Source: Callorhinchus milii (Eukaryota). Taken from it: a stretch of 64,000 bases of DNA. A program made the position numbers and the translations under genes. This document shows, piece by piece, positions 39,621 through 52,959 of this stretch. Under the pieces are notes generated by a model. That model did no database searches. It had not been told where the DNA came from and was given only the letters and a program-made list of their open reading frames with translations. Each line of letters begins with the position of its first letter. Position 1 is the first letter of the stretch. The stretch is from the NCBI RefSeq assembly GCF_018977255.1, contig NW_024704756.1, forward strand, positions 1 to 64,000, in the 5' to 3' direction.

Positions 39621-40715
39621 GTAAGTATCACAGCGAGCAGCTTCAATGTTATATAATGTGGTTGCAACCTTGGATTTGTTTAAGCCACATTTCCAATCAC
39701 ACCGCACACCTCACTGCTGAAACCCTCCTCCATGCTTTCATCACCTCCCATCTTGATTTCTGCAATGCCCCTCCTCAGCAGTTTCCACAGTTTCACCATT
39801 CACAAAGTCCAAGTGTTTCTAAACTCCATCGCCTGTGTCATCAAACCAGAACCATACTGCATACACTCATCACCTCAGTCCTGCCAAATTTCATTGGCAC
39901 AGAGCAAACTGATTAATAGAAACAGGAAGAAGTCATTCAGCCCCTTGAGCCTGTTCTGCCATTCTATTAGATCATGTCTGATCTGTACCTCAACTCCAAT
40001 TACCTGCCTTTACCCATTCCCTTGATACCCTGACCTAACAAACATCTATCCACCTCAGTCTGGACAATGTGATTGGATCCAGGTATAATCCACATCCTTT
40101 GGGGGAAGAGAATTCAAGATTTCCAAGATGTCCTGATTCCAAGCTCTTCACACTCCCCAACAAATCACTTCATGCCCAGGCACCTCCCTACAACCCCAAC
40201 CTGCTCATCTTCCACTCTGCTTAAGGACTTTGAGTTGCCAGTTAACAACAAGATCAAACAACGTGAATTTATGTAACACCCTTCATGCTGGGTAGCATCC
40301 CAGAATGCTTAACAGTGGCAGAGTCTGACCCCAAGTTAGGTGGAGGTGGCGAGGGGGGGAGGTGGCAAGCACAATCAAAAAAGAAGGTGTTTAGGTGGGA
40401 TTCGAAGGTGGCGAGAGAGGGGACAAGGTGGAGGGATTGAGGGAGAAAGTTCCAGAGCTTCGGAGCATGGAGGCTGAAAGCATGGCCGCCCTTCTATCCT
40501 CCTCTGCCCTCTTTCATCCCACCCCAGTCCCACCTCCACGCTCAGGTCCTGATCCCCGACTGTTCAGCGCTTTGGGACGTTCTCTCGAAGTGAAAGGCAC
40601 TTTACAAATTTAATTTTGTTGTTTGTTGTTGTTGGTGATGGGTTGTACTGTGCATTAAAAAGTTCTAGACTTGTGATTTTTATGATGTGACAAACTATTA
40701 TTTTGTTTGTTCTAG

Positions 40716-40979
40716 ATGGACCAGGATTACCCATTATGTCTATCATCCCAGATCAAACCGTTCACTGTTTAGGAACAACCTTTGTTTTGCTGTGTTCCGC
40801 GGACTCCAATTCAGTGTCCCAATTTAAGTGGTTTCACAATGGTGCCTCTCTTCTGCTAAACAGCCGACAAATTACCATCAGTAATATTTCTATGAACGAC
40901 ACTGGAAAACACACTTTTCAGGCAAATAACAATGTAACACTAATGTATAATGAAGCGATCAGAAAAATCTAAGCCATGG
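40716..40979 (+). pseudogene. CEACAM-like IgC exon (B-type), disabled
   Basis: Splicing recreates the YGP junction; LLCSADSNSVSQFKWFHNG..ITISNISMNDTG; second Cys lost and stop near the end; ag/gt boundaries. Confidence 0.8.
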
Positions 40980-41159: not shown

Positions 41160-41552
41160 GGTAGGAATGTAAAAAGACTAAAATACGTAAAGTACAGTGT
41201 CTAGACTAGGATAAGATTAAAGTTGTTTTTTAAGCAACAATGTAGATAAATTAGAGCAGAACCAGTGTCCTTGTCCTGTCTGCAAATGTATAATTAAACT
41301 TGTGATGGCTGAATATTGCTGGTCAATCAACAGCAAGAATTGTTTTGAGACATGAGGTGATCACAAATAATCATGTATATAAACTGATGGGACTGCCCCA
41401 TTGGTAGAGGGAGAGTACCCACTCTTCTGAGAGACGTGCTATTGTATTGCCTCTCTCTTTCCCTCTCCTTGCTGCAACTATATTTTTGAGCTAACTATGT
41501 TTGTGAGTGTTCGTTTAATCCGAGCTATAGCGACTACATCCTGGGTTCGTCA
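41160..41552 (+). repeat. 5' LTR
   Basis: Matches 51201-51401 at both ends; TATATAAA at about 41376; ends in CA, 3 nt before the PBS. Confidence 0.9.
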
Positions 41553-41555
41553 ATT

Positions 41556-41573
41556 TGGAGGTTCCACCGAGAT
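41556..41573 (+). promoter_or_regulatory. Primer binding site, tRNA-Gln
   Basis: TGGAGGTTCCACCGAGAT is the 18-nt complement of the tRNA-Gln(CTG) 3' end. Confidence 0.93.
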
Positions 41574-41834
41574 GGTATGCCTATGAGCATTCGGGAGACG
41601 GACGACTAAAGGGAGGATTGTTAGTGAACGAATTTCACCGGTATATACACGGTAAGCCTCTGCTTACATTGAAATTGTTTACTCTCAGTTTTGACCATTT
41701 TGTTCCGCTCCTGGTGTTGATGGCACTACCATCTAGTGTCTAAATTGTAGTCTGTTCTAAGAAACGAACTGGCCAGAAAAGTGTACGCTTTCGGTAATTG
41801 GATTGACCGGGGTTCGAGGCCGTATGAAAATAAA

Positions 41835-41975
41835 AGATTAAAGTATAAGAAAATAAAGTATAAGAAAATAAAGTATAAGAAAATAAAAGATTCAATGCCA
41901 TTTAAAGTATAAGAAAAGCATGCATTACACGTATAAGAAAATAAAAGGTTCGAAACCATTTTCTAAAGTATAAGA
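41835..41975. repeat. 15-bp AT-rich tandem repeat (AAAGTATAAGAAAAT) in the ERV leader
   Basis: Three adjacent copies plus partial copies downstream. Confidence 0.8.
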
Positions 41976-42053
41976 TACGAAATTTGTGTATTATTGTTTC
42001 GATTTTTTGTTTATGCATTGATTTGAAAAAAACTTGTAATAAATACTAACAAA

Positions 42054-43840
42054 ATGGATCAGAACTCATCCAAATTAGAGGTCTGTCCTCAGGGAACGCC
42101 CTGTGCCTTCATGTTAAATAATTATGGACAAGAGACTATACAGTACCTTAAAATATGGGAGAATTGGACAAAAGGGAACATACACTGTTGGCCTGCCGAT
42201 GGCTCGTTTAACTGAGACAGACTGCGGTATTTAAAACTAAAGCTTGAAACAAAGGCATTGTTGAAGGGAGGTTGTTTTGGCAAGTGTAGATGTAGACTTG
42301 ATATGCAGGCTCACATGTCCGCATTTAATGATTGGGTAACTGAAAGTGAACGCAGGCACGAGGAAAGTGTAAAGAAAAGTAAGCAAGGGAATGCTTCTCA
42401 GCATCTGGAGAAATTTGGAGGGAATGCCGAGAAGTTACTATTGCAAATGCAACATAAAGAAAATAAAGGAAGTAGAGCAGAGGAAAACAAAAGACAGACA
42501 GAGGATGAAGAGAAAAGAAAGGATGATGAGGAGGCTTGCCAAGCAACAGGATATCCTTGTCAATATCCCTCAATTGTTGTTAATTCCACTCCAAGCGCCC
42601 CGTCCCCTACTCCATCCGCATACCCGACAGACTCAGGTTAATAACAGAGCAGATAGGATCAGTCCCAGTGTCCCCTCCACCACAAGGCCACTACTCGTTT
42701 ACAAGCAGGAGTAACGGTAGTTCTACCATGTCTTACCACAGATTGTCAGACAGATTGGGACAATCTGGAACTGGAAGAGATACGACCGGAGGGTCATTAT
42801 CTGTCTCTATGTTACCAATGAGATCATTTCCAGGACCTATGGGAAGTACAATGGAAATATACAGACCTTGGTCAGCTATTGAATTAAAAGATTTAATAAC
42901 CTCTACAGTGAGCCCGAATTCCGATTTCAAAAAAACTTTTCATCAGCTAAGATTGATATACTTGTGCCACAATCCAACTTTCCCGGACTGGATTGTGTTC
43001 TTGGAAGGGTGGCTAGGTCCCATGAAGAGCGCACAAGTAATTGATGGATTAGTACAGAAATTTGGCGGAGTCGTAGATAACACAATTCCAGCCCCCAGAG
43101 AATTACTACCAGAATTAATTGATATATTGGATGCAACTTTTCCCCTAAGAAGCGACTGGTCTAAAATTTCAGAATGTGCACAGAAAGATGGGGAGGATAA
43201 AGAGGACTTTGTGGGTAGATTGAGAACAATTTTTAAAGAAAATTCAGGAATAGTGGATTTGAAAAATAATCAATCACCTTTTGTTAATGCACTTGTACAA
43301 AATTGCCATCCTGGGTTACAGGAAAAAATTAAATTAATTTGTATTGGATGGGAAGGAAAAACGGTTGATGAAATATTGCCAGTTTTAAAACATTGCCAGA
43401 AACAGCTTAAGGAAAAAAAACTGTAAAACTTTAGAATTTCTGATGAGCAACAATGGGTACAGCCTTCTTGACCCACTCAACAACAGTACTGGGGGAGAGG
43501 TAGATGCATGAACAGAGGAAGAGACAGGGGCAGAGGTCGCAGATACTTCCCTCGGGGATGGCAACCTCGCTCTGCAGCTCCTCAAGGTAATTGGAATCAG
43601 GGAAATTACGGAATGCCTCCGCCCCAAGGTCCGCAGTTCCAATACCCACCTCAGGAAAATGCTAACCCACCTCAGACTCAGAATGCATCATGTTTTAACT
43701 GTGGCCAAATGGGACATTGGTCAAGAGATTGCCCAAGCAGAAAAACGGGTTTTTCTATGCAACATCCTTATCAACCAGATTATCAACCAAATGGGAAATC
43801 GATGCCTCTCCTGGAAGGGGATGATACATGGCAAGCCTGA
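42054..43840 (+). pseudogene. gag: gag, with internal stops and frameshift
   Basis: MDQNSSK start (degenerate MG myristoylation site), WPADGSF matrix motif, PSAP late-domain-like motif, YRPWS capsid start, MHR-like QKDGEDKEDFVGRL, knuckle CFNCGQMGHWSRDC. Confidence 0.9.
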
Positions 43841-46800
43841 AAGAAGGTAAGCCCTGATGGGAAATTATTACCATTGGGGTGTCCTACTAAAAACAAAGAA
43901 CCGATTATTACATTACAGATTGAAGGAAAAACAGAACTTTTAATCGATACAGGGGCTACTTTTTCAACTTTAAAAGGATTAACTCAAATTGACAACAGGA
44001 ACCCGGTCTCTGTAGTAGGAGTAACGGGAATACCTATGCTACTCCCAAGGACAAAAGATATTAAAATTACAGGACAATTGGGAGGACAGAAAGTTGATGA
44101 AATTCACACCTTTCTGGTAAGTGAAGATTTACCAATTAACCTGTGTGGAAGAGATTTGCTGTGTAAATTAGGAGCTATAATAAATTATACTGCGGATGGT
44201 TTAAGTATATAAATACCTGAGAACGAATACAGTGATATGTGTTCACTAATGGAGAGATGTACACAACAGTACTACTATGCATGGAATTTAATTGAATCAA
44301 AACCAATTACCAAAGAATTAGAGAGTATAGTTAGAAAATAAGCTTACCTGCAGTTTATACAATATTTAAAAGATTCACAATTGACACCGTGGAAAACGAG
44401 TTTGCATTGTACTGCTCTTTTTGATTTTACCTCCGTGACTCATGAGGCAATCTGCAAATTAAAACTATACCTTGACATCTCTACTGCATTTAAAACTAAA
44501 TATATTTACGTAGGAAAGCAGGTAATTGCAGCCGCAATCACCTTACTTACAGCAGAACAGAAATATTTTCTTGCACAAAACAGTACGCCACATTTGACAT
44601 TACAAGTAGCAAAGGGATTTGATGCTAAAGAGCTAGGGTCTATGCTATTAATTAACAGAAAGTTACCATATATTTCTCTTTGTGAAGGACTACAGTACAA
44701 CCTAGAAATGGATTGTTATCGTATAAAATTTGAATCGGTAAAGCCAGCAGCAAGATTTGAATTAAATAATGTAGTAACATCCAACATAGTAATGCCGCAA
44801 TGGTTGAATGAGATACCAGACGAATTATGGAGGTAAGATTCTAACAGCCAAACTGTACAAGATTACGGTTCACCCTGAAAGGCAATGCCTTACCGTCCTC
44901 AGTACCGTTTAAAACCAGAGGCTGAAGCAGAAATACAGGAAGTAATTAAAAGTTTACTTGAACAAGGGATCATCACTAAATATAAAAGTCCATGTAAATA
45001 CGCCCATTCTGCCAGTATTAAAAGCAGATGGAAAGCGCTGGAGATTTGTACAAGATTTAAGAGCTATTAATGACGTTGTAATACCTTGCTACCCTGTTTG
45101 CCCAATCCAACTACTATTTTGACTACTCTACCAGCCGATACAAAATTTTATTCAGTAATCGATTTATGTTCAGTATTTTTCTCAATCCCTATACATGTTG
45201 AATCTCAATATTTGTTTGCATTTACGTATAAAGGAGAACAGTACACTTGGACAAGATTACCTCAAGGATATTGTGAGAGTCCCACAATTTTCTCACAATG
45301 TTTAAAAGGAGACTTGTCTAATGTTAAATTAACAGGTGGGTCAACTTTAATACAATATGTGGATGATTTACTGATAGCATCACCCACAAAAGAAGGATGT
45401 GAAATTGATACTAAAATCTTATTGAGAGCTGTTGCAGAAAAAGGACACAAAGTCGCAAAGGAAAAACTCCAATTGGTAAGTGGGACTGTAACTTATTTGG
45501 GACACCAATTGTGTGAAGCTACAAGAGCACCTGGTGAGAAAAGAATACAAGGGATTTGTAATTTACCTAAGCCTAATACAATCAGGCAAATGAAACATTT
45601 TTTGGGAATGGCTAATTATTGTAGACAGTGGATTTCAGAATATGCTCCATTATCCAGACCACTATTAGACATATCTAAGCCAGAATCACCAGAGCCTTTG
45701 CAACGGACAGAAACAGCAAATACAGCTTTTGATGATTTAAAATTGGCACTACAAAATGCGCCAGCACCAAACTATGAGAAACTTTTTCATTTATTTGTAC
45801 ATGAAAAGGGCGGATTTGCGCAAGCTGCACTAACTCAAGGTCATTGTGGAAAACAGCAACCTATTGCTTACATTTCGACTAAACTTGACCCAGTGGCTAG
45901 TGCTTTACCGGGATGCCTTAAAGCTGTTGCCGCAACATATTATGCTGTTATACAAGCAGAAATATTCACTTTAAATCACCCAATGGAGGTGCATGTTGCA
46001 CACGCAGTGGAAGCTTGTTTATTAAAACATGCAACTCAACATTTAACCAGTGCTAGGTCTAGCAAATATAAAATTGTTTTACTGTCAAATTTTAACCTGA
46101 CAATTAAGTGATGCAATACGTTAAATCCAGCCACATTATTACCAATTGAAACAGAAGGAGAACCATGTATCTGTGAACAAATTATTTATCTAGAAACAAA
46201 ACCAAGACCCGACTTACAGGATTCCCCACTGACTAATGCAGACAATGAGTGGTATGTGGATGGATCAGCTTGTTACAACCCAAATGGAAAGTTATGCTCA
46301 TCCTGTGCTGTATGTACACAGTTTCAGATCGTAGGAAGTAATAAGTTACCAACTAATACGTCTGTGCAAATAGTAGAAATATGTGCACTAACAAGAGCGT
46401 GTGTTTTATCAGAAGGGAAAACCTTAAATGTTTATACAGACTCTAGATACGCTTTTGGAGTATGTCATGATTTTGGCAGATTACGGGAATAAAGAGGATT
46501 CCTCACCTTTACCGGATCGCCTATTAAAAATGGGAAGTATATTTTTAATTTACTAAAAGCTATTCTTTTGCCATCAAGATTAGCAGTGGTGAAGTGTAAT
46601 GCACACACCACTGGTACAGCCGCAGTCTCTCAAGGGAACAGGATGGCTGATGAAACAGCTAAATTAACAACATTATCAGATGATACAAGTATGGTACCGA
46701 TGTGTACTTTAAAAGATTATTTGGATATCGATTGTCTTAATTCAATTGGACTAAATGAAGTATGGACCTTACAGTATCAACCTCTACTGATGAAATGTCT

Positions 46801-47079
46801 AGTTGGAAAAAGGACAATTGCTATATTAAAAATCAAGGAATATGGATAAGTAATGATGGAAGGACTGTACTTCCCAAAGTACTATATCCATGGATTGTTC
46901 ATTTGGTTCATCAGTTTACACATGAAGGAACAGTATTGATGTTTAAGTGGATAACTAAAACCTGGTATTCTGTAGGACTAACACCATATTTAAATCAAGT
47001 TGTTACTAATTGTGTTATTTGCCAGAAGAACAACCCAGGTAAGGGTAAGCCTCCAGCCATGGCAACTCATCTTCCACCT
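43841..47079 (+). pseudogene. pol: pro-2H phosphodiesterase-RT-RNase H-integrase N-terminus, disabled
   Basis: LIDTGA / GRDLL protease; LHCT and PHLT; WTRLPQGYCESP, QYVDDLL; WYVDGS, VYTDSRYAF, GNRMAD; HQFTH...CVIC. Confidence 0.93.
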
Positions 47080-47226
47080 GGTTAAGAAAAACAAAAACCT
47101 TTTCGAGTTCCAATCAAACACAGCCACTGTTTGCAACCAGAGTGGTGTTTATTAAACCCCAGGATCCGTCCAAGTTCCCGATGGGCGTGGGCAAGTGAGC
47201 ACAATCAATCAATTCACTAACAGAAC

Positions 47227-47553
47227 AATAATAATAATAATAATCCTTGCATTTGATATAGCGCTTTTCACGTCGGGAGGACGTCCCAAAGCGCTTCACA
47301 GAACACACTGTAAAGTGAATTGACTGTATATTTGTGGGTGAACGCGGCAGCCAATTGCGCACAGCAATGTCCCACAAACAGTCGTAGATTGAAAATGACC
47401 AATTTTTTTATTATTATTTTTGGTTTTGGAGGGATTATTATTAGGTGTGTGGAGTAAGGAAACTTGCCCAAGGTTTCGCCCTCTACCGGGAATTGAACTC
47501 CAATCTCTCACTTGCAAAGCGAGTGCTCTAACCACTGAGCTACAGGACTCCAC
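47227..47553 (-). mobile_element. tRNA-derived SINE, full length, young
   Basis: Same family, close to consensus. Confidence 0.93.
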
Positions 47554-47582
47554 AATACTACCGCGTAATCCTGCCGCGTGGT

Positions 47583-48568
47583 TGTTAGAATTTACACTTT
47601 TTGTACACTGCTAGAATCATAATAGATGTTGTGAATGGGTTAACTTTTAAGTTAAGTGTGGGGCACAACTGGACTGACAGTCATGGGATAGGACACATCT
47701 GGTTTTCTCTGTTTTTGAAAGAATAACAGACAGGGGCCGGGGGTCACCTCCTATCAGTAAATGACAACAAGCCACAGAGGGAACGGTCCAAGGTACCAGT
47801 CGACACAGGATCTCGACTGAGCAATAAGTCGCTAGATTCTGACAGGGCCGAGCGACAGAAGGCAACCCTCAAGAATAGCCACTAATGAGCAAGTTGTTTA
47901 AACTGGAGGGCCTCGGTACCATCCCGGGATACTGATAAGGAATAACCAGTCACTTAAAAGGAATGTACTAATGATCCCACACCACAAAATAATGAGCACC
48001 AGATACAGCCCTAAACTGATCAATCCTCTATCTTAGACAATTAAGGACAATGTGTATGTGTGTGAGGCGTGTACACCCCATGAGGTGTTCACGTGAACCC
48101 GGCATGATTTCGACCGGGTGATCTAATGTCCGCACCATGACTGGACGAATATCAGTATAAGAGTTCCGATAACTTTGTGTACGGGGCCGTCCCAGGTCGC
48201 GGAGACAAGGGTACGGAGATGGAAGACTGAGAGCTGGAAACACTAAGACCGAGGATATCAGATGGAAGATTGAAAGCTGTCAGCAAGAAGACTGAAAGCA
48301 TGAAGAATCAAACTTGTGTGCTGGAAAGACACAGTGTTGAACTCTTGAACTCGAGATATCTCCGTAGTTATTATTCTGTTATAAGATCTGTTGATTGTAC
48401 CGCCTTTGGTCTGCCCATCGGGATATTGGGGAATAACGAACGAATAATAATAAAACAGTCTGATATCTGGTTAGAGGAATTAGCGTTATTTCCTTACAGA
48501 TTTGGCGGATTTTATTTTCTAACATGGTCGTCTACTTTTGACTTCTAGCTCTCAGTCTTCCATCCACA
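47583..48568 (+). mobile_element. Solo LTR nested in opposite orientation
   Basis: Starts TGTTAG, TATAA at about 48156, AATAAA at about 48449, CA end; first ~565 bp are the reverse complement of 48625-49525 minus the SINE. Flanking duplication imperfect. Confidence 0.8.
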
Positions 48569-49048
48569 ATAGGTACTGCCCTCGGCCCCGATCTTGGTCT
48601 GGCACGATGTCTTAAGCTTGTGTCCATCCAGTCATGGTGCGGACATTAGGTCACCTGGCCAAAATCATGCTGGGTTCACGTGAACACCTCATGGGGTGTA
48701 GGGCCTCACACACATACACATTGTCCTTAAGACCCCTGTTATCTAATGCTCGTTATTTTGTTAGGTGGGATCATTAGTACATTCCTTTTAAGTGACTGGT
48801 TATTCCTTATCAGTATCCTGGGATGGTACCAAGGTCCTCTAGTTTAAGCAACTTGCTCATCAGTGGCTATTCTTGAGGGTTGCCTTCTGTCATTTGGCCC
48901 TGTCAGAATCTAGCGACTTATTGCTCAGTCGAGATCCTGTGTTGACTGGTACCTTGGACCGTTACCTCTGTGGCTTGTTGTCATTTACTGATAGGAGGTG
49001 ACCCCCGGCCCCTGTCTGTTATTCTTTCAAAAACAGAGAAAAACAGAT

Positions 49049-49356
49049 GTGGAGTCCTGTAGCTCAGTGGTTAGAGCACTCGCTTTGCAAGTGAGAGACC
49101 TGAGTTCAATTCCAGGCAGAGGGCGAAACCTTGGGCAAGTTTCCTTACTCCACACAGAGCCTAATAATAATCCCTCCAAAACCAAAAACAATAATAAATT
49201 GGCCATTTTCAATGTACGACTGTTTGTGGGACATTGCTGTGCGCAATTGGCTGCCGCGTTCGCCCACAAATATACAGTCAATTCACTTTACAGTGTGTTC
49301 TGTGAAGCGCTTTGGGACGTCCTCCCGACGTGAAAAGCGCTATATCAAATGCAAGG

Positions 49357-49412
<56 letters not shown>
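49049..49412 (+). mobile_element. tRNA-derived SINE with long (TTA)n tail
   Basis: Inserted at ATGT of the LTR; the empty site is visible in the paralogous arm near 47695. Confidence 0.94.
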
Positions 49413-49525
49413 GTGTCCTATCCCATGACTCTCAGTCCAGTTGCCCCCACACTTAACTTAAATGTTAACCCGTTCGCAACATATATTATGACTCTAACAT
49501 TATACACAAAGTGTAAATTTTAACA

Positions 49526-50438
49526 ACCTCGGGGTCCATTTCAACATTTACAGATGGATTTTATTCAGTTACCCAAAGAAATGGGACTTGAATATATTCT
49601 CGTAGTTGTTGAAATGTTCTCTAAATGGATTGAAGCCTTCCCTTGCAGACACACTGTGGCCATATACTTGATTAAAGAAATCATTCTGAGGTTTGGAGAA
49701 CCTCTCCTATTGTCAAGTGATAATGGTCCACACTTTATTGGGCGAGTGGTAAAAGAAGTCTGTAAGGTATTAAAAATTGATCAGCGATTTCACTGCTCCT
49801 ATCATCCGCAATCAGCAGGAGTCGTGGAAAGAGCAAACAGCACTTTGAAATTAAAATTAGAAAAATTAACTACTGAAACAGGTCTTAAGTGGCCACAAGT
49901 ATTACCTATTACTCTCATGCAAATGCGAGCGCATACCTCTCGGACTCTCAAATTATCTCCACATGAAATAGTTTTCGGCCGCAGTATGCCAATGATGTTC
50001 GATGCACCAGAAAAAGTTGATTATGATGTTCATCATATGGAAGATGCTATGCTTACGTATTGTATTGCACTCACCAAATGTTTATGCAGTTTCTCTAAAC
50101 AGATACAAGAGCTCCAACAACCGGCCGCAACTGAAGCTTGTCACTCGTTTGTGCCAGGAGATTTTGTATATGTGAAGGTGTTCAAACGTAAAGGTGGACT
50201 TTCTCCCCGTTGGGAAGGACCTTATCAAATATTACTAACAACCTTTACTGCAGTGAAAGTACAAGAAAAATCAACATGGATACATGCCTCCCACTGCAAA
50301 AAGGCGCCGGTGCAGGATGTAGACATGCCGAAACGGAAGAACAAGGAAGAAACAGACTCAGACAGCGAGAAGAGCGACGTGAGTCAAGAGTCAGGTCGCA
50401 GCCGCAGTTCCAGTTTATCTTCTGTTTCCTCCAATTAG
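49526..50438 (+). pseudogene. pol: Integrase core and C-terminus (open frame, cut off from the rest of pol)
   Basis: [37 protein letters not shown]. Confidence 0.92.
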
Positions 50439-50442
50439 TGCT

Positions 50443-51140
50443 ATGACAGTTGACGCGTATTTGGTGTTTATTAATGTGTATTATTTTCTTTTCTTTCGTA
50501 GCAAGATCTCTCGGTGTTGGGTCCAGTACTTACTCAAACACTACTAATTGTATGATCACCTCATGTTATAGTTTTTCTACGCCAGTTAACAACTCCGTCG
50601 TTATGTGTAGCAATTTAACTGAATGTATTCCCTTTTATCTAACAATTGTAATAGAGCTATCTATTACTTGTATACTAGTATATTCTTTTAATTTTTGTTA
50701 TTGTCATACTATGTTTAACTGTACTACTCAACCCCTTTGCCATCCAAACAGAACTGGTACAGATGAATTTATTATATACAATAAAATGTTTCTCTGGAAA
50801 GCGAGGACTCTAGCAGAACGGATTTCCTAGTGGTTATTCCTTTGCGGTTAATAATTCGAAGCTTACCAATATGCAAATCACAGATGCCAATTTGTTCCCA
50901 ATCAAATTAATAAAATAGGAAAAGACGCTGCAGGAATCATTAATAACGATAAAGGCTGGGGTTTGTTTGGTTGGTTTACAGGTCTATTTGACGGATTAGA
51001 AGGATGGATTAAGACCGGAGTAATGTACTCACTTGAAATAATTATAATCATTATTGTTTGTATGTACTTATTAAAATGCTTATAACCTGTTGTATCCAAT
51101 GTAGCAAGAGCACTGCAAAGAAGCTTGCGTTTTTAGAGTT
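50443..51140 (+). pseudogene. env: Internally deleted env remnant
   Basis: Signal-peptide-like hydrophobic start, Cys/N-glycan-rich stretch, then WGLFGWFTGLFDGLEGWIKTGVMYSLEIIIIIIVCMYLLKCL membrane anchor; only about 0.7 kb. Confidence 0.65.
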
Positions 51141-51200
51141 AGGAAGAAGTGAGACAAGACAAGGAATTGAGTTATCCTAAGTAAGGATAAAATGGAGGAG

Positions 51201-51401
51201 TGTGGGAATGTAAAAAGACTAAAATACGTAAAGTACAGTGTCTAGACTATGATAAGATTAAAGTTATTTTTTAAGCAACAATGTAGATAAATTAGAGCAG
51301 AACCAGTGTCCTTGCTGCAAGTGTTAAATAAACTATATTTCTGAGCTAACTGTTAGTGTTCGTTTAATCCGAGCTATAGCGACTACATCCTGGGTTCGAC
51401 A
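51201..51401 (+). repeat. 3' LTR with an internal deletion of about 190 bp
   Basis: TG...CA, follows a purine-rich tract, retains AATAAA. Confidence 0.9.
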
Positions 51402-51735: not shown

Positions 51736-52011
51736 AACAAATGTCCAACGTCAGAGTTCTAGTCAATGCTTCAAACCCAGTGGAAGGTACTGAGAGTGTG
51801 TTCCTGACTTGTGACGCCTCTGGCCTCATTCATTCCTGAGTGTGGTTCAACGATAAACAAGCTCTCGAGAGCAACAAGCGGATTCTCATGTCTCCCAACA
51901 AAGATACCTTGACCATAAAGCTTGTAAACAGAAAGGACACTGGGGATTACTGCTGTTTGGTTCAAAATCCTGTCAGTAATGAGACAGCTACATTCAACAT
52001 AGAGGTTATCT
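51736..52011 (+). pseudogene. CEACAM-like IgC exon (A-type) with an in-frame TGA
   Basis: ag|..NASNPVEGTESVFLTCDASG..*VWFND..RILMSPNKDTLTIKLVNRKDTGDYCCLVQNPVS|gtaagt; phase 1-1. Confidence 0.85.
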
Positions 52012-52959
52012 GTAAGTACAAGCAACTTCATATAATAATAATACTTGTATTTAATATAATTATATTAATGATCCTTTCATTTGATATAGCTCCTTATCAC
52101 ATCTTTGAGATGTTTCAAAGCACTTCACAGGATACACTGCAAAGTGAATTAACTGTATATTTTATGAGTGAAACGTGGCAGCCAATTCCATATAGTGACA
52201 TCCCACAAACAGTCATAGATTTAAGCAACCAATTTATTGCTTTATTATTTTTGAAGCAATTATTACCTCCAGAAAAGCAATCCACCAATCAACTATCGAC
52301 CGGGTTCCTACTTACTACGAGGTAAATAGAGGAGTGTCTGTCGAGCAAGGAAACTTGCCCAGCGTTTCACCCTGACCCACCTGGAAATCAAACATAGGTT
52401 AGTGCCCCAACCACTGAGCTGCAGGACTCCACTTCTACCCATTATGCAGGAACCCATTGAACCAACTGCTCAAAAGATGATCTGTGTTGATCAGAGGTAC
52501 AATTTATGTACAACAAAAAAAACTTGCATTTAGATAGCGCCTTTCACGCGAGGTAGTATCCCGGAGTGCTTGACAGTGGTGGAGTCCAACAACAAACCAA
52601 GGGGAGAGGGAGGGAAGAGTTGACCGTAAGCTCGATCAAAATGTACGGTCTTTAGGTGGGATTTGAAGGTGGGGAGGGAGGGGCAAGAAGGAGACATTCA
52701 GGGAGAGAGTTCTAGAACTTCAGGGCATTGTGGTTGAAGACACGGCCAGCGATGGTGAAGCGGATGGGACAAGAGGCCAGAGCCAGCCGAGCGGATGCAG
52801 CATATGGTGGAGTGGGGGATGAGATGATATGAAGGGATTTGAAAATGATTGAGAGGATCTTGAAGTCGATCTGTACAGCACTTCTCACGTTGGGAGGGTG
52901 TCCCACAGTGTTTGACAATACCAGCTGGGCACCAGAGATTTGGCGGAGAGCAAGGTGGT

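What the first reader, a model, noticed from the sequence alone, without database searches (positions are those of the whole stretch)
44213..44836. 2H (CNPase-like) phosphodiesterase module between protease and RT of the ERV
Seen: about 200 extra codons separate protease from RT and contain two HxT motifs about 62 aa apart, LHCTALFD (44402) and TPHLTLQVAKG (44585). Known: paired HxT/S motifs define 2H phosphoesterases, and vertebrate CNPase has LHCT...AHITL. Viral 2H enzymes (coronavirus ns2, rotavirus VP3 C-terminus) destroy 2'-5' oligoadenylate, and CNP has been reported to restrict HIV-1. I recall 2H domains being noted in fish retroviral polyproteins, so the architecture may not be new, but I know of no established function. 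Inference: a captured, virion-packaged enzyme that degrades nucleotide immune messengers or heals 2',3'-cyclic-phosphate RNA/tRNA primer ends.
Basis: partly seen in the sequence, partly recalled or inferred. Interest (0 to 1): 0.8.

Follow-up and report, generated by a model that had tools for sequence, protein, structure and literature searches.

The report
CNPase-like enzyme in fish-type endogenous retrovirus
A broken endogenous retrovirus carries, between its protease and reverse transcriptase, a conserved domain predicted to fold like the host enzyme CNPase; such domains are already reported in fish retroviruses, and this one likely removed cyclic-phosphate marks from RNA breakdown products, which is untested.

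Summary
A ~170-residue domain (44267-44773) sits in the protease frame of a decayed epsilon-like provirus. Its two HxT motifs lie 62 residues apart; the insert is broken by stops, not by a frameshift. Both motifs are kept in 13 of 13 sister-family copies (dN/dS about 0.1-0.2 between subgroups). The predicted fold (pLDDT 88) matches vertebrate CNPase (Z 18-19, rmsd 2.2 A) far better than fungal tRNA-ligase CPD (13.3) or ns2, VP3, AKAP18, Acb1 and poxvirus cGAMP PDE (5.7-7.5). The likely activity is therefore 2',3'-cyclic-phosphate hydrolysis. My searches found no functional test. Added here: the domain is in 22 of 45 informative RT relatives; all 15 named carriers are fish (hagfish to teleosts) and none of 6 named tetrapod ones has it. 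This fits an early capture later lost in gammaretroviruses (weak tree). New member of a known kind.

The parts
41160..41552 (+). 5' LTR
   Evidence: blastn to 3' LTR, 8 mismatches in 204 gap-free columns
41556..41573 (+). primer-binding site, tRNA-Gln
   Evidence: 15 nt complementary to the 3' end of host tRNA-Gln genes, plus TGG for CCA
42036..43840 (+). gag, broken (several stops); zinc knuckle near 43690; ends at an in-frame TGA at 43838
   Evidence: ORF list; zf-CCHC E 1e-9; TGA 38 codons before DTGA in 5 of 9 sister-family copies examined, 24-44 codons in the other 4
43841..44209 (+). retroviral aspartic protease (DTGA)
   Evidence: Pfam RVP E 3.9e-9
44267..44773 (+). CNPase-clade 2H phosphoesterase domain, in the protease frame, interrupted by a stop at 44339
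   Evidence: model pLDDT 87.8; Foldseek E 4e-9; VIA Z 18.9, rmsd 2.2, 167 aligned to mouse CNPase 166-378
44405..44422 (+). first catalytic motif H-C-T, with Phe at the offset of CNPase F235
44591..44659 (+). second catalytic motif H-L-T and the following helix (equivalent of CNPase helix alpha7 by offset)
   Evidence: H138-149; Gly at the G324 offset in 74 of 75 rows
44800..46750 (+). RT, tether and RNase H, broken by frameshifts and stops
   Evidence: RVT_1 E 3e-23, RNase_H E 2e-9; indels against siblings
46759..50438 (+). integrase, split by a ~2.4-kb insertion (about 47086-49523)
   Evidence: Integrase_H2C2; rve and MLVIN_C; insertion structure
50447..51085 (+). short env remnant (most of env is missing)
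   Evidence: ORF list; sibling L025 has ~800 nt more at this point; env identity inferred from position
51189..51401 (+). polypurine tract and 3' LTR (internally deleted)

Best explanation
The stretch is a decayed copy of a retroviral Pol domain predicted to fold like the catalytic domain of vertebrate CNPase, which in the live virus likely hydrolysed 2',3'-cyclic phosphates (free 2',3'-cNMPs or RNA ends) and so would likely blunt host sensing of RNA-breakdown products. Steps: (1) SHOWN: it lies in frame between PR and RT, behind an in-frame gag TGA, so it is part of Pol. (2) SHOWN: its motifs were under purifying selection while the sister family replicated. (3) PREDICTED: CNPase-clade fold with both catalytic H-x-T motifs, the base-stacking aromatic and the CNPase-specific helix. 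(4) INFERRED from gamma/epsilon retrovirus biology: made by stop-codon read-through as Gag-Pol, packaged, and cut out by PR at the flanking linkers. (5) INFERRED: 2',3'-cyclic phosphate to 2'-phosphate chemistry as in CNPase (about 0.65). (6) SPECULATIVE (about 0.35): the purpose is to destroy cyclic-phosphate products of host RNases acting on viral RNA, such as 2',3'-cGMP, the TLR7 pocket-1 ligand. The copy in this window makes no such protein.
For: Fold: VIA Z 18.0 for CNPase, the only chain with Z>=8 among 48,161 representatives; next 2H enzymes <=7.8. Z 18.9, rmsd 2.2 A; fungal Trl1 CPD 13.3. Foldseek PDB: all rows shown (top 50 ranks) are CNPase/RICH. Profile A3 against PDB sequences: the only non-RT hits are CNPase/gRICH, E 0.025-1. 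hhalign to a host CNPase exon: prob 80%, E 1.4e-5. Columns of A3: His1 70/72, His2 75/79, aromatic (Y/F) at the F235 offset 63/76, Gly at the G324 offset 74/75. CNPase determinants and the uniqueness of helix alpha7 come from PMC4643303 (passages). Selection: dN/dS 0.10-0.13 on unanimous columns and 0.18-0.22 pooled between sister-family subgroups; H/T/H/T kept in 13 of 13 copies. 2',3'-cGMP as TLR7 ligand made by RNase T2 and PLD: PMC11470960 (abstract).
Against: No activity was measured. Two CNPase ligand-binding positions differ: no Arg among the five commonest residues at the R307 offset, and K/R in 62 of 77 rows at the V321 offset; Tyr at the Y168 position in only 6 of 52 rows. Identity to CNPase is 13-19%, and Pfam CNPase does not hit any of 13 members scanned. 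Offsets were read from motif spacing, not from a superposition. 11 of 40 carriers lack a complete pair of motifs, some lacking both His; these may be decayed copies or lineages that kept the domain without catalysis. A shared fold shows no function, and substrate choice varies among close viral 2H enzymes (bioRxiv 2025.08.21.671373, passages). An enzyme inside the core may not reach endosomal TLR7 ligands. Protease release is not shown.
Confidence: 0.55

Rival explanations
1. RNA-end healing for replication: the domain opens 2',3'-cyclic phosphates on nicked genomic RNA or on the packaged tRNA primer, so that reverse transcription can proceed.
For: Position next to RT in Pol. The CNPase clade descends from tRNA-healing CPDases (PMC5434554, passages). 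Trl1 CPD is the second-closest fold, Z 13.3. ESM Atlas neighbours carry tRNA_lig_CPD, scores 0.95 (query recognition below the tool's threshold).
Against: CNPase chemistry leaves a 2'-phosphate next to the 3'-OH, and the virus has no ligase or 2'-phosphotransferase (knowledge). 23 of 45 informative relatives lack the domain. The walleye-virus structural hits are labelled Env, not Pol, so closeness to RT may not be needed.
Confidence: 0.15
2. Cyclic-dinucleotide nuclease: the domain degrades 2'3'-cGAMP made when cGAS senses reverse-transcribed DNA, like Acb1 and avipoxvirus PDEs.
For: It would reach the cytosol with the core that makes the DNA. Viral 2H enzymes often do this. The K/R at the V321 offset could suit a larger anionic substrate (inference).
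Against: Acb1 Z 7.3 and penguinpox PDE Z 5.7, against 18.0 for CNPase. Helix alpha7 is proposed to limit substrate size in CNPase. A lid was not examined.
Confidence: 0.12
3. Mainly non-catalytic: a CNPase-derived module that binds Gag, RNA or host CNP (a decoy for CNP-type restriction of assembly) or spaces PR from RT.
For: Host CNPase binds lentiviral Gag and blocks assembly (stated in PMC5434554). Some carriers have lost one or both His. The domain evolves faster than RT (median identity 20% against 46%).
Against: The catalytic columns are among the most conserved, intact in 13 of 13 sister copies and in 29 of 40 distant carriers. Only the catalytic domain is present, without the N-terminal PNK-like domain.
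Confidence: 0.1
4. 2-5A phosphodiesterase that antagonises OAS/RNase L, like coronavirus ns2/NS4b and rotavirus VP3.
For: Same superfamily and motif definition (PMC8406329, abstract and section 5). This host has OAS genes: four in tandem on C8 and one on C1.
Against: ns2 Z 6.8, VP3 6.4-6.7, AKAP18 6.2. The OAS/RNase L module is reported lost in the teleost branch (bioRxiv 693333, passages), yet 12 of 15 named PR-and-RT carriers are teleost and most keep the motifs. None of 6 named tetrapod relatives has the domain. In this host the two KEN-domain loci look like IRE1 (motif recalled), so RNase L was not found; that search is inconclusive.
Confidence: 0.06

Closest known systems
Vertebrate CNPase / fish RICH catalytic domain (PDB 2xmi, 2y3x, 1woj, 2i3e; Pfam PF05881)
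   Same: Predicted fold over the whole catalytic domain (Z 18-19, rmsd 2.2-3.4 A), HCT and HxT motifs, aromatic at the F235 offset, helix and Gly after motif 2
   Different: 13-19% identity; no Pfam CNPase hit; no N-terminal PNK-like domain or membrane anchor; no Arg at the R307 offset, K/R at the V321 offset; His spacing 60-63 against 79; embedded in viral Pol
CNPase/2H domains of fish retroviruses and ERVs (Mazumder 2002 as cited in PMC9503650; Basta 2009 as cited in PMC4977317)
   Same: Same kind of domain in epsilon-like viruses. The best viral structural hits are WEHV1 (E 3e-11), an unnamed 1072-aa target Q2VF30 (recalled as salmon swim bladder sarcoma virus polyprotein) and WDSV
   Different: Host here is probably a cartilaginous fish (inference). 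The WEHV1 and WDSV hits are labelled envelope polyproteins, whereas this domain is in Pol; the position in Env was not checked
Fungal tRNA ligase Trl1 CPD domain (PDB 6u05; PF08302)
   Same: Same sub-branch of the 2H family, Z 13.3; ESM Atlas neighbours
   Different: Lower structural score than CNPase; no kinase or ligase partner in the virus
Viral immune-evasion 2H enzymes: MHV ns2, MERS-like NS4b, rotavirus VP3-CTD, AKAP7, Acb1, penguinpox cGAMP PDE
   Same: 2H superfamily fold and paired H-x-T/S motifs; virus-encoded
   Different: Z 5.7-7.5 only; a different clade; substrates are 2-5A or cGAMP

Membership tests
2H phosphoesterase superfamily | Two H-phi-S/T-phi motifs | tested here: met
   HCTA and HLTL in the window; both His in 68 of 71 covering rows and both full motifs in 62
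2H phosphoesterase superfamily | Two-lobed 2H fold | tested here: met
   pLDDT 87.8; all 21 VIA rows with Z>=5 are 2H enzymes or (two rows, recalled) 2H-fold proteins
2H phosphoesterase superfamily | Phosphoesterase activity | not testable with these tools
   needs an enzyme assay
CNPase clade | Closest structure is the CNPase catalytic domain, over its full length | tested here: met
   Z 18.9, residues 166-378; next non-CNPase chain 13.3, then 7.7
CNPase clade | Helix alpha7 after the second motif (absent in other 2H enzymes per PMC4643303) | tested here: met
   helix at model residues 138-149; Gly at the G324 offset in 74 of 75 rows; assigned by offset
CNPase clade | Base-stacking F235 and ribose-binding Y168 | tested here: inconclusive
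   aromatic at the F235 offset in 63 of 76 rows; Tyr at the Y168 position in the window and host families but in only 6 of 52 rows
CNPase clade | R307 and V321 | tested here: not met
   V/A/D/M/T at the R307 offset; K/R in 62 of 77 rows at the V321 offset
CNPase (the vertebrate gene family proper) | Pfam PF05881 hit; N-terminal PNK-like domain | tested here: not met
   no hit for 13 of 13 members; the domain is flanked directly by PR and RT
2',5'-phosphoesterases (ns2/NS4b/VP3/AKAP7) | Closer to these structures than to other 2H clades | tested here: not met
   Z 6.0-6.8 against 18.0
2',5'-phosphoesterases (ns2/NS4b/VP3/AKAP7) | Cleaves 2-5A | not testable with these tools
   assay needed
Acb1 / poxvirus cGAMP PDEs | Terminal lid over the active site and cGAMP cleavage | not tested
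   model coordinates were not inspected; Z 5.7-7.5
Class I (epsilon-like) endogenous retrovirus | LTR-PBS-gag-stop-pol in one frame, YVDD RT, MLV-type integrase C-terminus, RT grouping with fish class I ERVs | tested here: met

The most novel reading that the evidence does not exclude
An ancestor of class I retroviruses captured a CNPase-clade enzyme early in vertebrate history. Lineages in hagfish, cartilaginous and ray-finned fish kept it, walleye viruses carry it in Env, and the line leading to tetrapod gammaretroviruses lost it. It is a virion-borne eraser of 2',3'-cyclic nucleotides such as 2',3'-cGMP, which would make it a new class of viral immune antagonist (aimed at RNase T2/TLR7-type sensing rather than 2-5A or cGAMP) and a clue to what CNPase itself is for.
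Probability: 0.2. Interest if true: 0.8.

Novelty: new member of a known kind. Interest (0 to 1): 0.38.

Why it matters
The domain itself is not new, but it is an orphan: Pfam does not recognise it, the named carriers are mostly annotated 'uncharacterized', and my ten literature searches found no functional test. The physiological substrate of CNPase is a long-standing open question (PMC3290555, search listing). A virus family that held the catalytic domain under purifying selection across fish lineages points to a role of 2',3'-cyclic phosphates in virus-host conflict, and a plain enzyme assay on the isolated domain can test that.

Tried and rejected
Single-sequence searches gave nothing: Pfam for the insert, phmmer against PDB, protein search of longer proteins (0 of 217 candidates). 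The 13-row profile A2 gave only a chance PDB hit and no Pfam family; hhalign to the host exon was weak with A2 (prob 1.6%). The first-motif host exon aligned out of register (prob 1.2%). Viral-contig scans: the alignment had no usable pattern and the RT query found nothing, so the place of the domain in WDSV/WEHV Env is unchecked. dN/dS among the window's own four-copy family (0.56-0.77 for the insert, 0.77-1.65 for RT) mostly reflects decay after insertion and says little on selection. The 'stop' shown for siblings at 44834 was set aside as an effect of gap placement. Expression: no RNA holder listed, and two guessed RNA runs laid nothing; no evidence either way. No target-site duplication was evident at the LTR ends. 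The careful RT tree did not finish; quick trees were used. Not held: Mazumder 2002, Basta 2009, the CNP-HIV paper and LaPierre 1999. Term searches found no mention of CNPase or phosphodiesterase in PMC4422223, PMC8672886 and PMC6001957, none of phosphodiesterase in PMC4299795, and none of retroviruses or CNP in bioRxiv 2025.08.21.671373 (main texts only; supplements not seen). No complex prediction was sent: no protein partner is claimed.

Full report
OBSERVATION. The region lies in a provirus spanning about 41160-51401. It has paired LTRs (8 mismatches in 204 gap-free columns), a tRNA-Gln primer-binding site at 41556-41573, gag with a zinc knuckle, protease, RT, RNase H, an integrase with an MLV-type C-terminus and an env remnant. 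It sits between Ig-domain exons of a host gene. Protease and the insert share one frame. The His residues of LHCTA (44405) and PHLTL (44591) are 62 codons apart, and such a pair arose in 18 of 20,000 shuffles. The insert has no internal frameshift. It is broken by stops at 44210 and 44339, which the aligned siblings do not share (1 of 1 and 2 of 2 covering copies), and by a short deletion near 44830. This copy cannot make the protein.

CONSERVATION IN THE GENOME. The 164-aa frame found 18 matches at 17 loci: four copies of the window's family (63-82% to the window) and 13 of a sister family (30-35%). Some sister copies have open frames through PR, insert and RT. All 13 sister copies keep H, T, H, T. 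Between the three subgroups of that family, dN/dS for the insert is 0.11, 0.10 and 0.13 on unanimous columns (95-111 codons each; this filter favours conserved columns) and 0.21, 0.18 and 0.22 pooled. PR gives 0.08-0.31 and RT 0.02-0.09 on unanimous columns. Within subgroups the insert gives 0.45-1.05, as expected for decay after insertion. Two more distant host families also hit the domain profile, 2 of 12 stretches examined. The host has its own intron-containing CNPase gene.

CONSERVATION ELSEWHERE. A 13-row profile found 130 relatives at E<=0.001; 53 have both motifs 59-81 residues apart by a strict pattern. Many are PR-insert-RT polyproteins, named from zebrafish, tilapia, pipefishes and a sawshark. 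I then searched with RT alone. Of the best 120 relatives, 45 show both a protease motif and YxDD, and 22 of these carry the insert (PR-YxDD distance 427-508 against mostly 302-326). All 15 named carriers are fish: a hagfish, 2 skate proteins and 12 ray-finned fish, of which 11 are teleost and one a bichir. One tilapia record also bears a ferret label. None of 6 named tetrapod proteins (two turtles, frog, hedgehog, bat, echidna) has the insert, and one named teleost protein lacks it. Of 40 carriers with a whole domain and RT, 29 have both full motifs and 11 do not. Domain and RT identities correlate modestly (Spearman 0.32; 0 of 999 permutations as high; pairs are not independent).

TREE. Quick RT trees need 5 changes (66 rows, unrooted, 3 forced by starred branches) or 7 changes (59 rows after dropping 18 near-duplicate or uninformative rows, rooted on two gypsy-like RTs, 2 forced), against 18-20 for shuffled labels. 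Carriers occur on both deep sides of a 99-supported clade. The gamma-like clade (REV, hedgehog, bat, echidna, mole rat) is nested within it and lacks the domain. One early gain with several losses fits, but the backbone branches have only 81-94 SH-aLRT and no AU test was run, so several gains or swaps are not excluded.

FOLD. With X at the stop and 80 rows, AlphaFold2 gave pLDDT 87.8 and pTM 0.78, with low-confidence linkers at both ends. Foldseek's rows shown (top 50 ranks) are all CNPase or RICH (best E 4e-9). Of 48,161 representative chains only CNPase exceeds Z 8 (18.0); Acb1 scores 7.3, ns2 6.8, VP3 6.7, AKAP18 6.2 and penguinpox cGAMP PDE 5.7. The second look gives Z 18.9 and rmsd 2.2 A over 167 residues (model 19-187 to CNPase 166-378), with fungal Trl1 at 13.3. 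The best viral hits are fish retroviruses: WEHV1 and WDSV envelope polyproteins and an unnamed 1072-aa target. Of the CNPase determinants (PMC4643303, passages), the F235 aromatic, the helix after motif 2 and G324 are kept by offset. R307 and V321 are not, and Y168 is kept only in some rows. It works like a CNPase by fold and catalytic core but is not the vertebrate gene: there is no Pfam hit and no N-terminal domain.

MECHANISM. An in-frame TGA sits 36 codons before the protease motif here and 38 codons before it in 5 of 9 sister copies examined. This is the read-through layout of gamma/epsilon viruses (knowledge), so the domain would be a low-copy, virion-packaged Pol product, probably cut out by PR (inferred). 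The clade points to 2',3'-cyclic-phosphate hydrolysis. The 2-5A rival is weak: OAS/RNase L is reported lost in teleosts (bioRxiv 693333, passages), where most carriers live, and the domain is missing from the tetrapod sample, where that pathway works. This host does have OAS genes. Among cyclic-phosphate targets I favour immune ligands, because RNase T2 and PLD turn RNA into 2',3'-cGMP that engages TLR7 (PMC11470960, abstract). That step is speculative, and access to the endosome is a problem for it. Primer or RNA healing, cGAMP cleavage and a non-catalytic role remain as rivals.

PRIOR KNOWLEDGE. PMC4977317 (passage) states that some fish epsilon-like ERVs encode CNPase or macro domains, citing Basta 2009. 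PMC9503650 (passage) lists 2H domains in fish retroviruses including WDSV, citing Mazumder 2002. Neither original was held. Ten searches turned up no functional study; subscription journals and supplements are not covered. Two earlier notes of this scan describe the same architecture, in a shark genome and elsewhere in this genome; they agree and are not independent support.

VERDICT. The domain is real, conserved and CNPase-like, and its presence in fish retroviruses is already reported. Its function is open and easy to test in vitro. New member of a known kind; interest 0.38. Correction to the count given under the 2-5A rival: 11 of the 15 named carriers are teleost, 12 are ray-finned.

Noticed in passing
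window 47086-49523: The integrase is split by a ~2.4-kb insert that is largely an inverted repeat (47224-48145 against 48627-49534, 88-95%). It is made of two opposed copies of a ~945-nt multi-copy repeat (72 matches in the genome, possibly a solo LTR), each arm holding a tRNA-derived SINE.
   Followed up: partly
window 40691-40969 and 51840-52322: Ig-domain exons flank the provirus on the same strand, so it lies in an intron of a multi-Ig-domain host gene.
   Followed up: partly
BFVD targets Q9WHI8 and A4GTG3: The walleye-virus structural hits are labelled envelope polyproteins (1317 and 1159 aa), so the same domain may sit in Env in those viruses and in Pol here.
   Followed up: no
L002 / L025 (G000:C2:117.9 Mb): A sibling provirus has an in-frame deletion that joins the 5' part of gag directly to the 2H domain, in a 424-codon open frame with both motifs.
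   Followed up: no
L072-L079 (e.g. G000:C30:988241): A young multi-copy ERV family (seven copies with identical scores, RT 45% to the window) carries a diverged domain of this kind (one copy checked).
   Followed up: partly
G000:C8:9.857-9.883 Mb: Four tandem OAS-family genes (plus one on C1), while no RNase L-like KEN domain other than two IRE1-like loci was found.
   Followed up: partly
L092 (G000:C466): A retroelement with a ~2000-codon open frame and YVDD, outside the class I clade, PR-YVDD distance 452 with no 2H hit; the extra stretch is unidentified.
   Followed up: no
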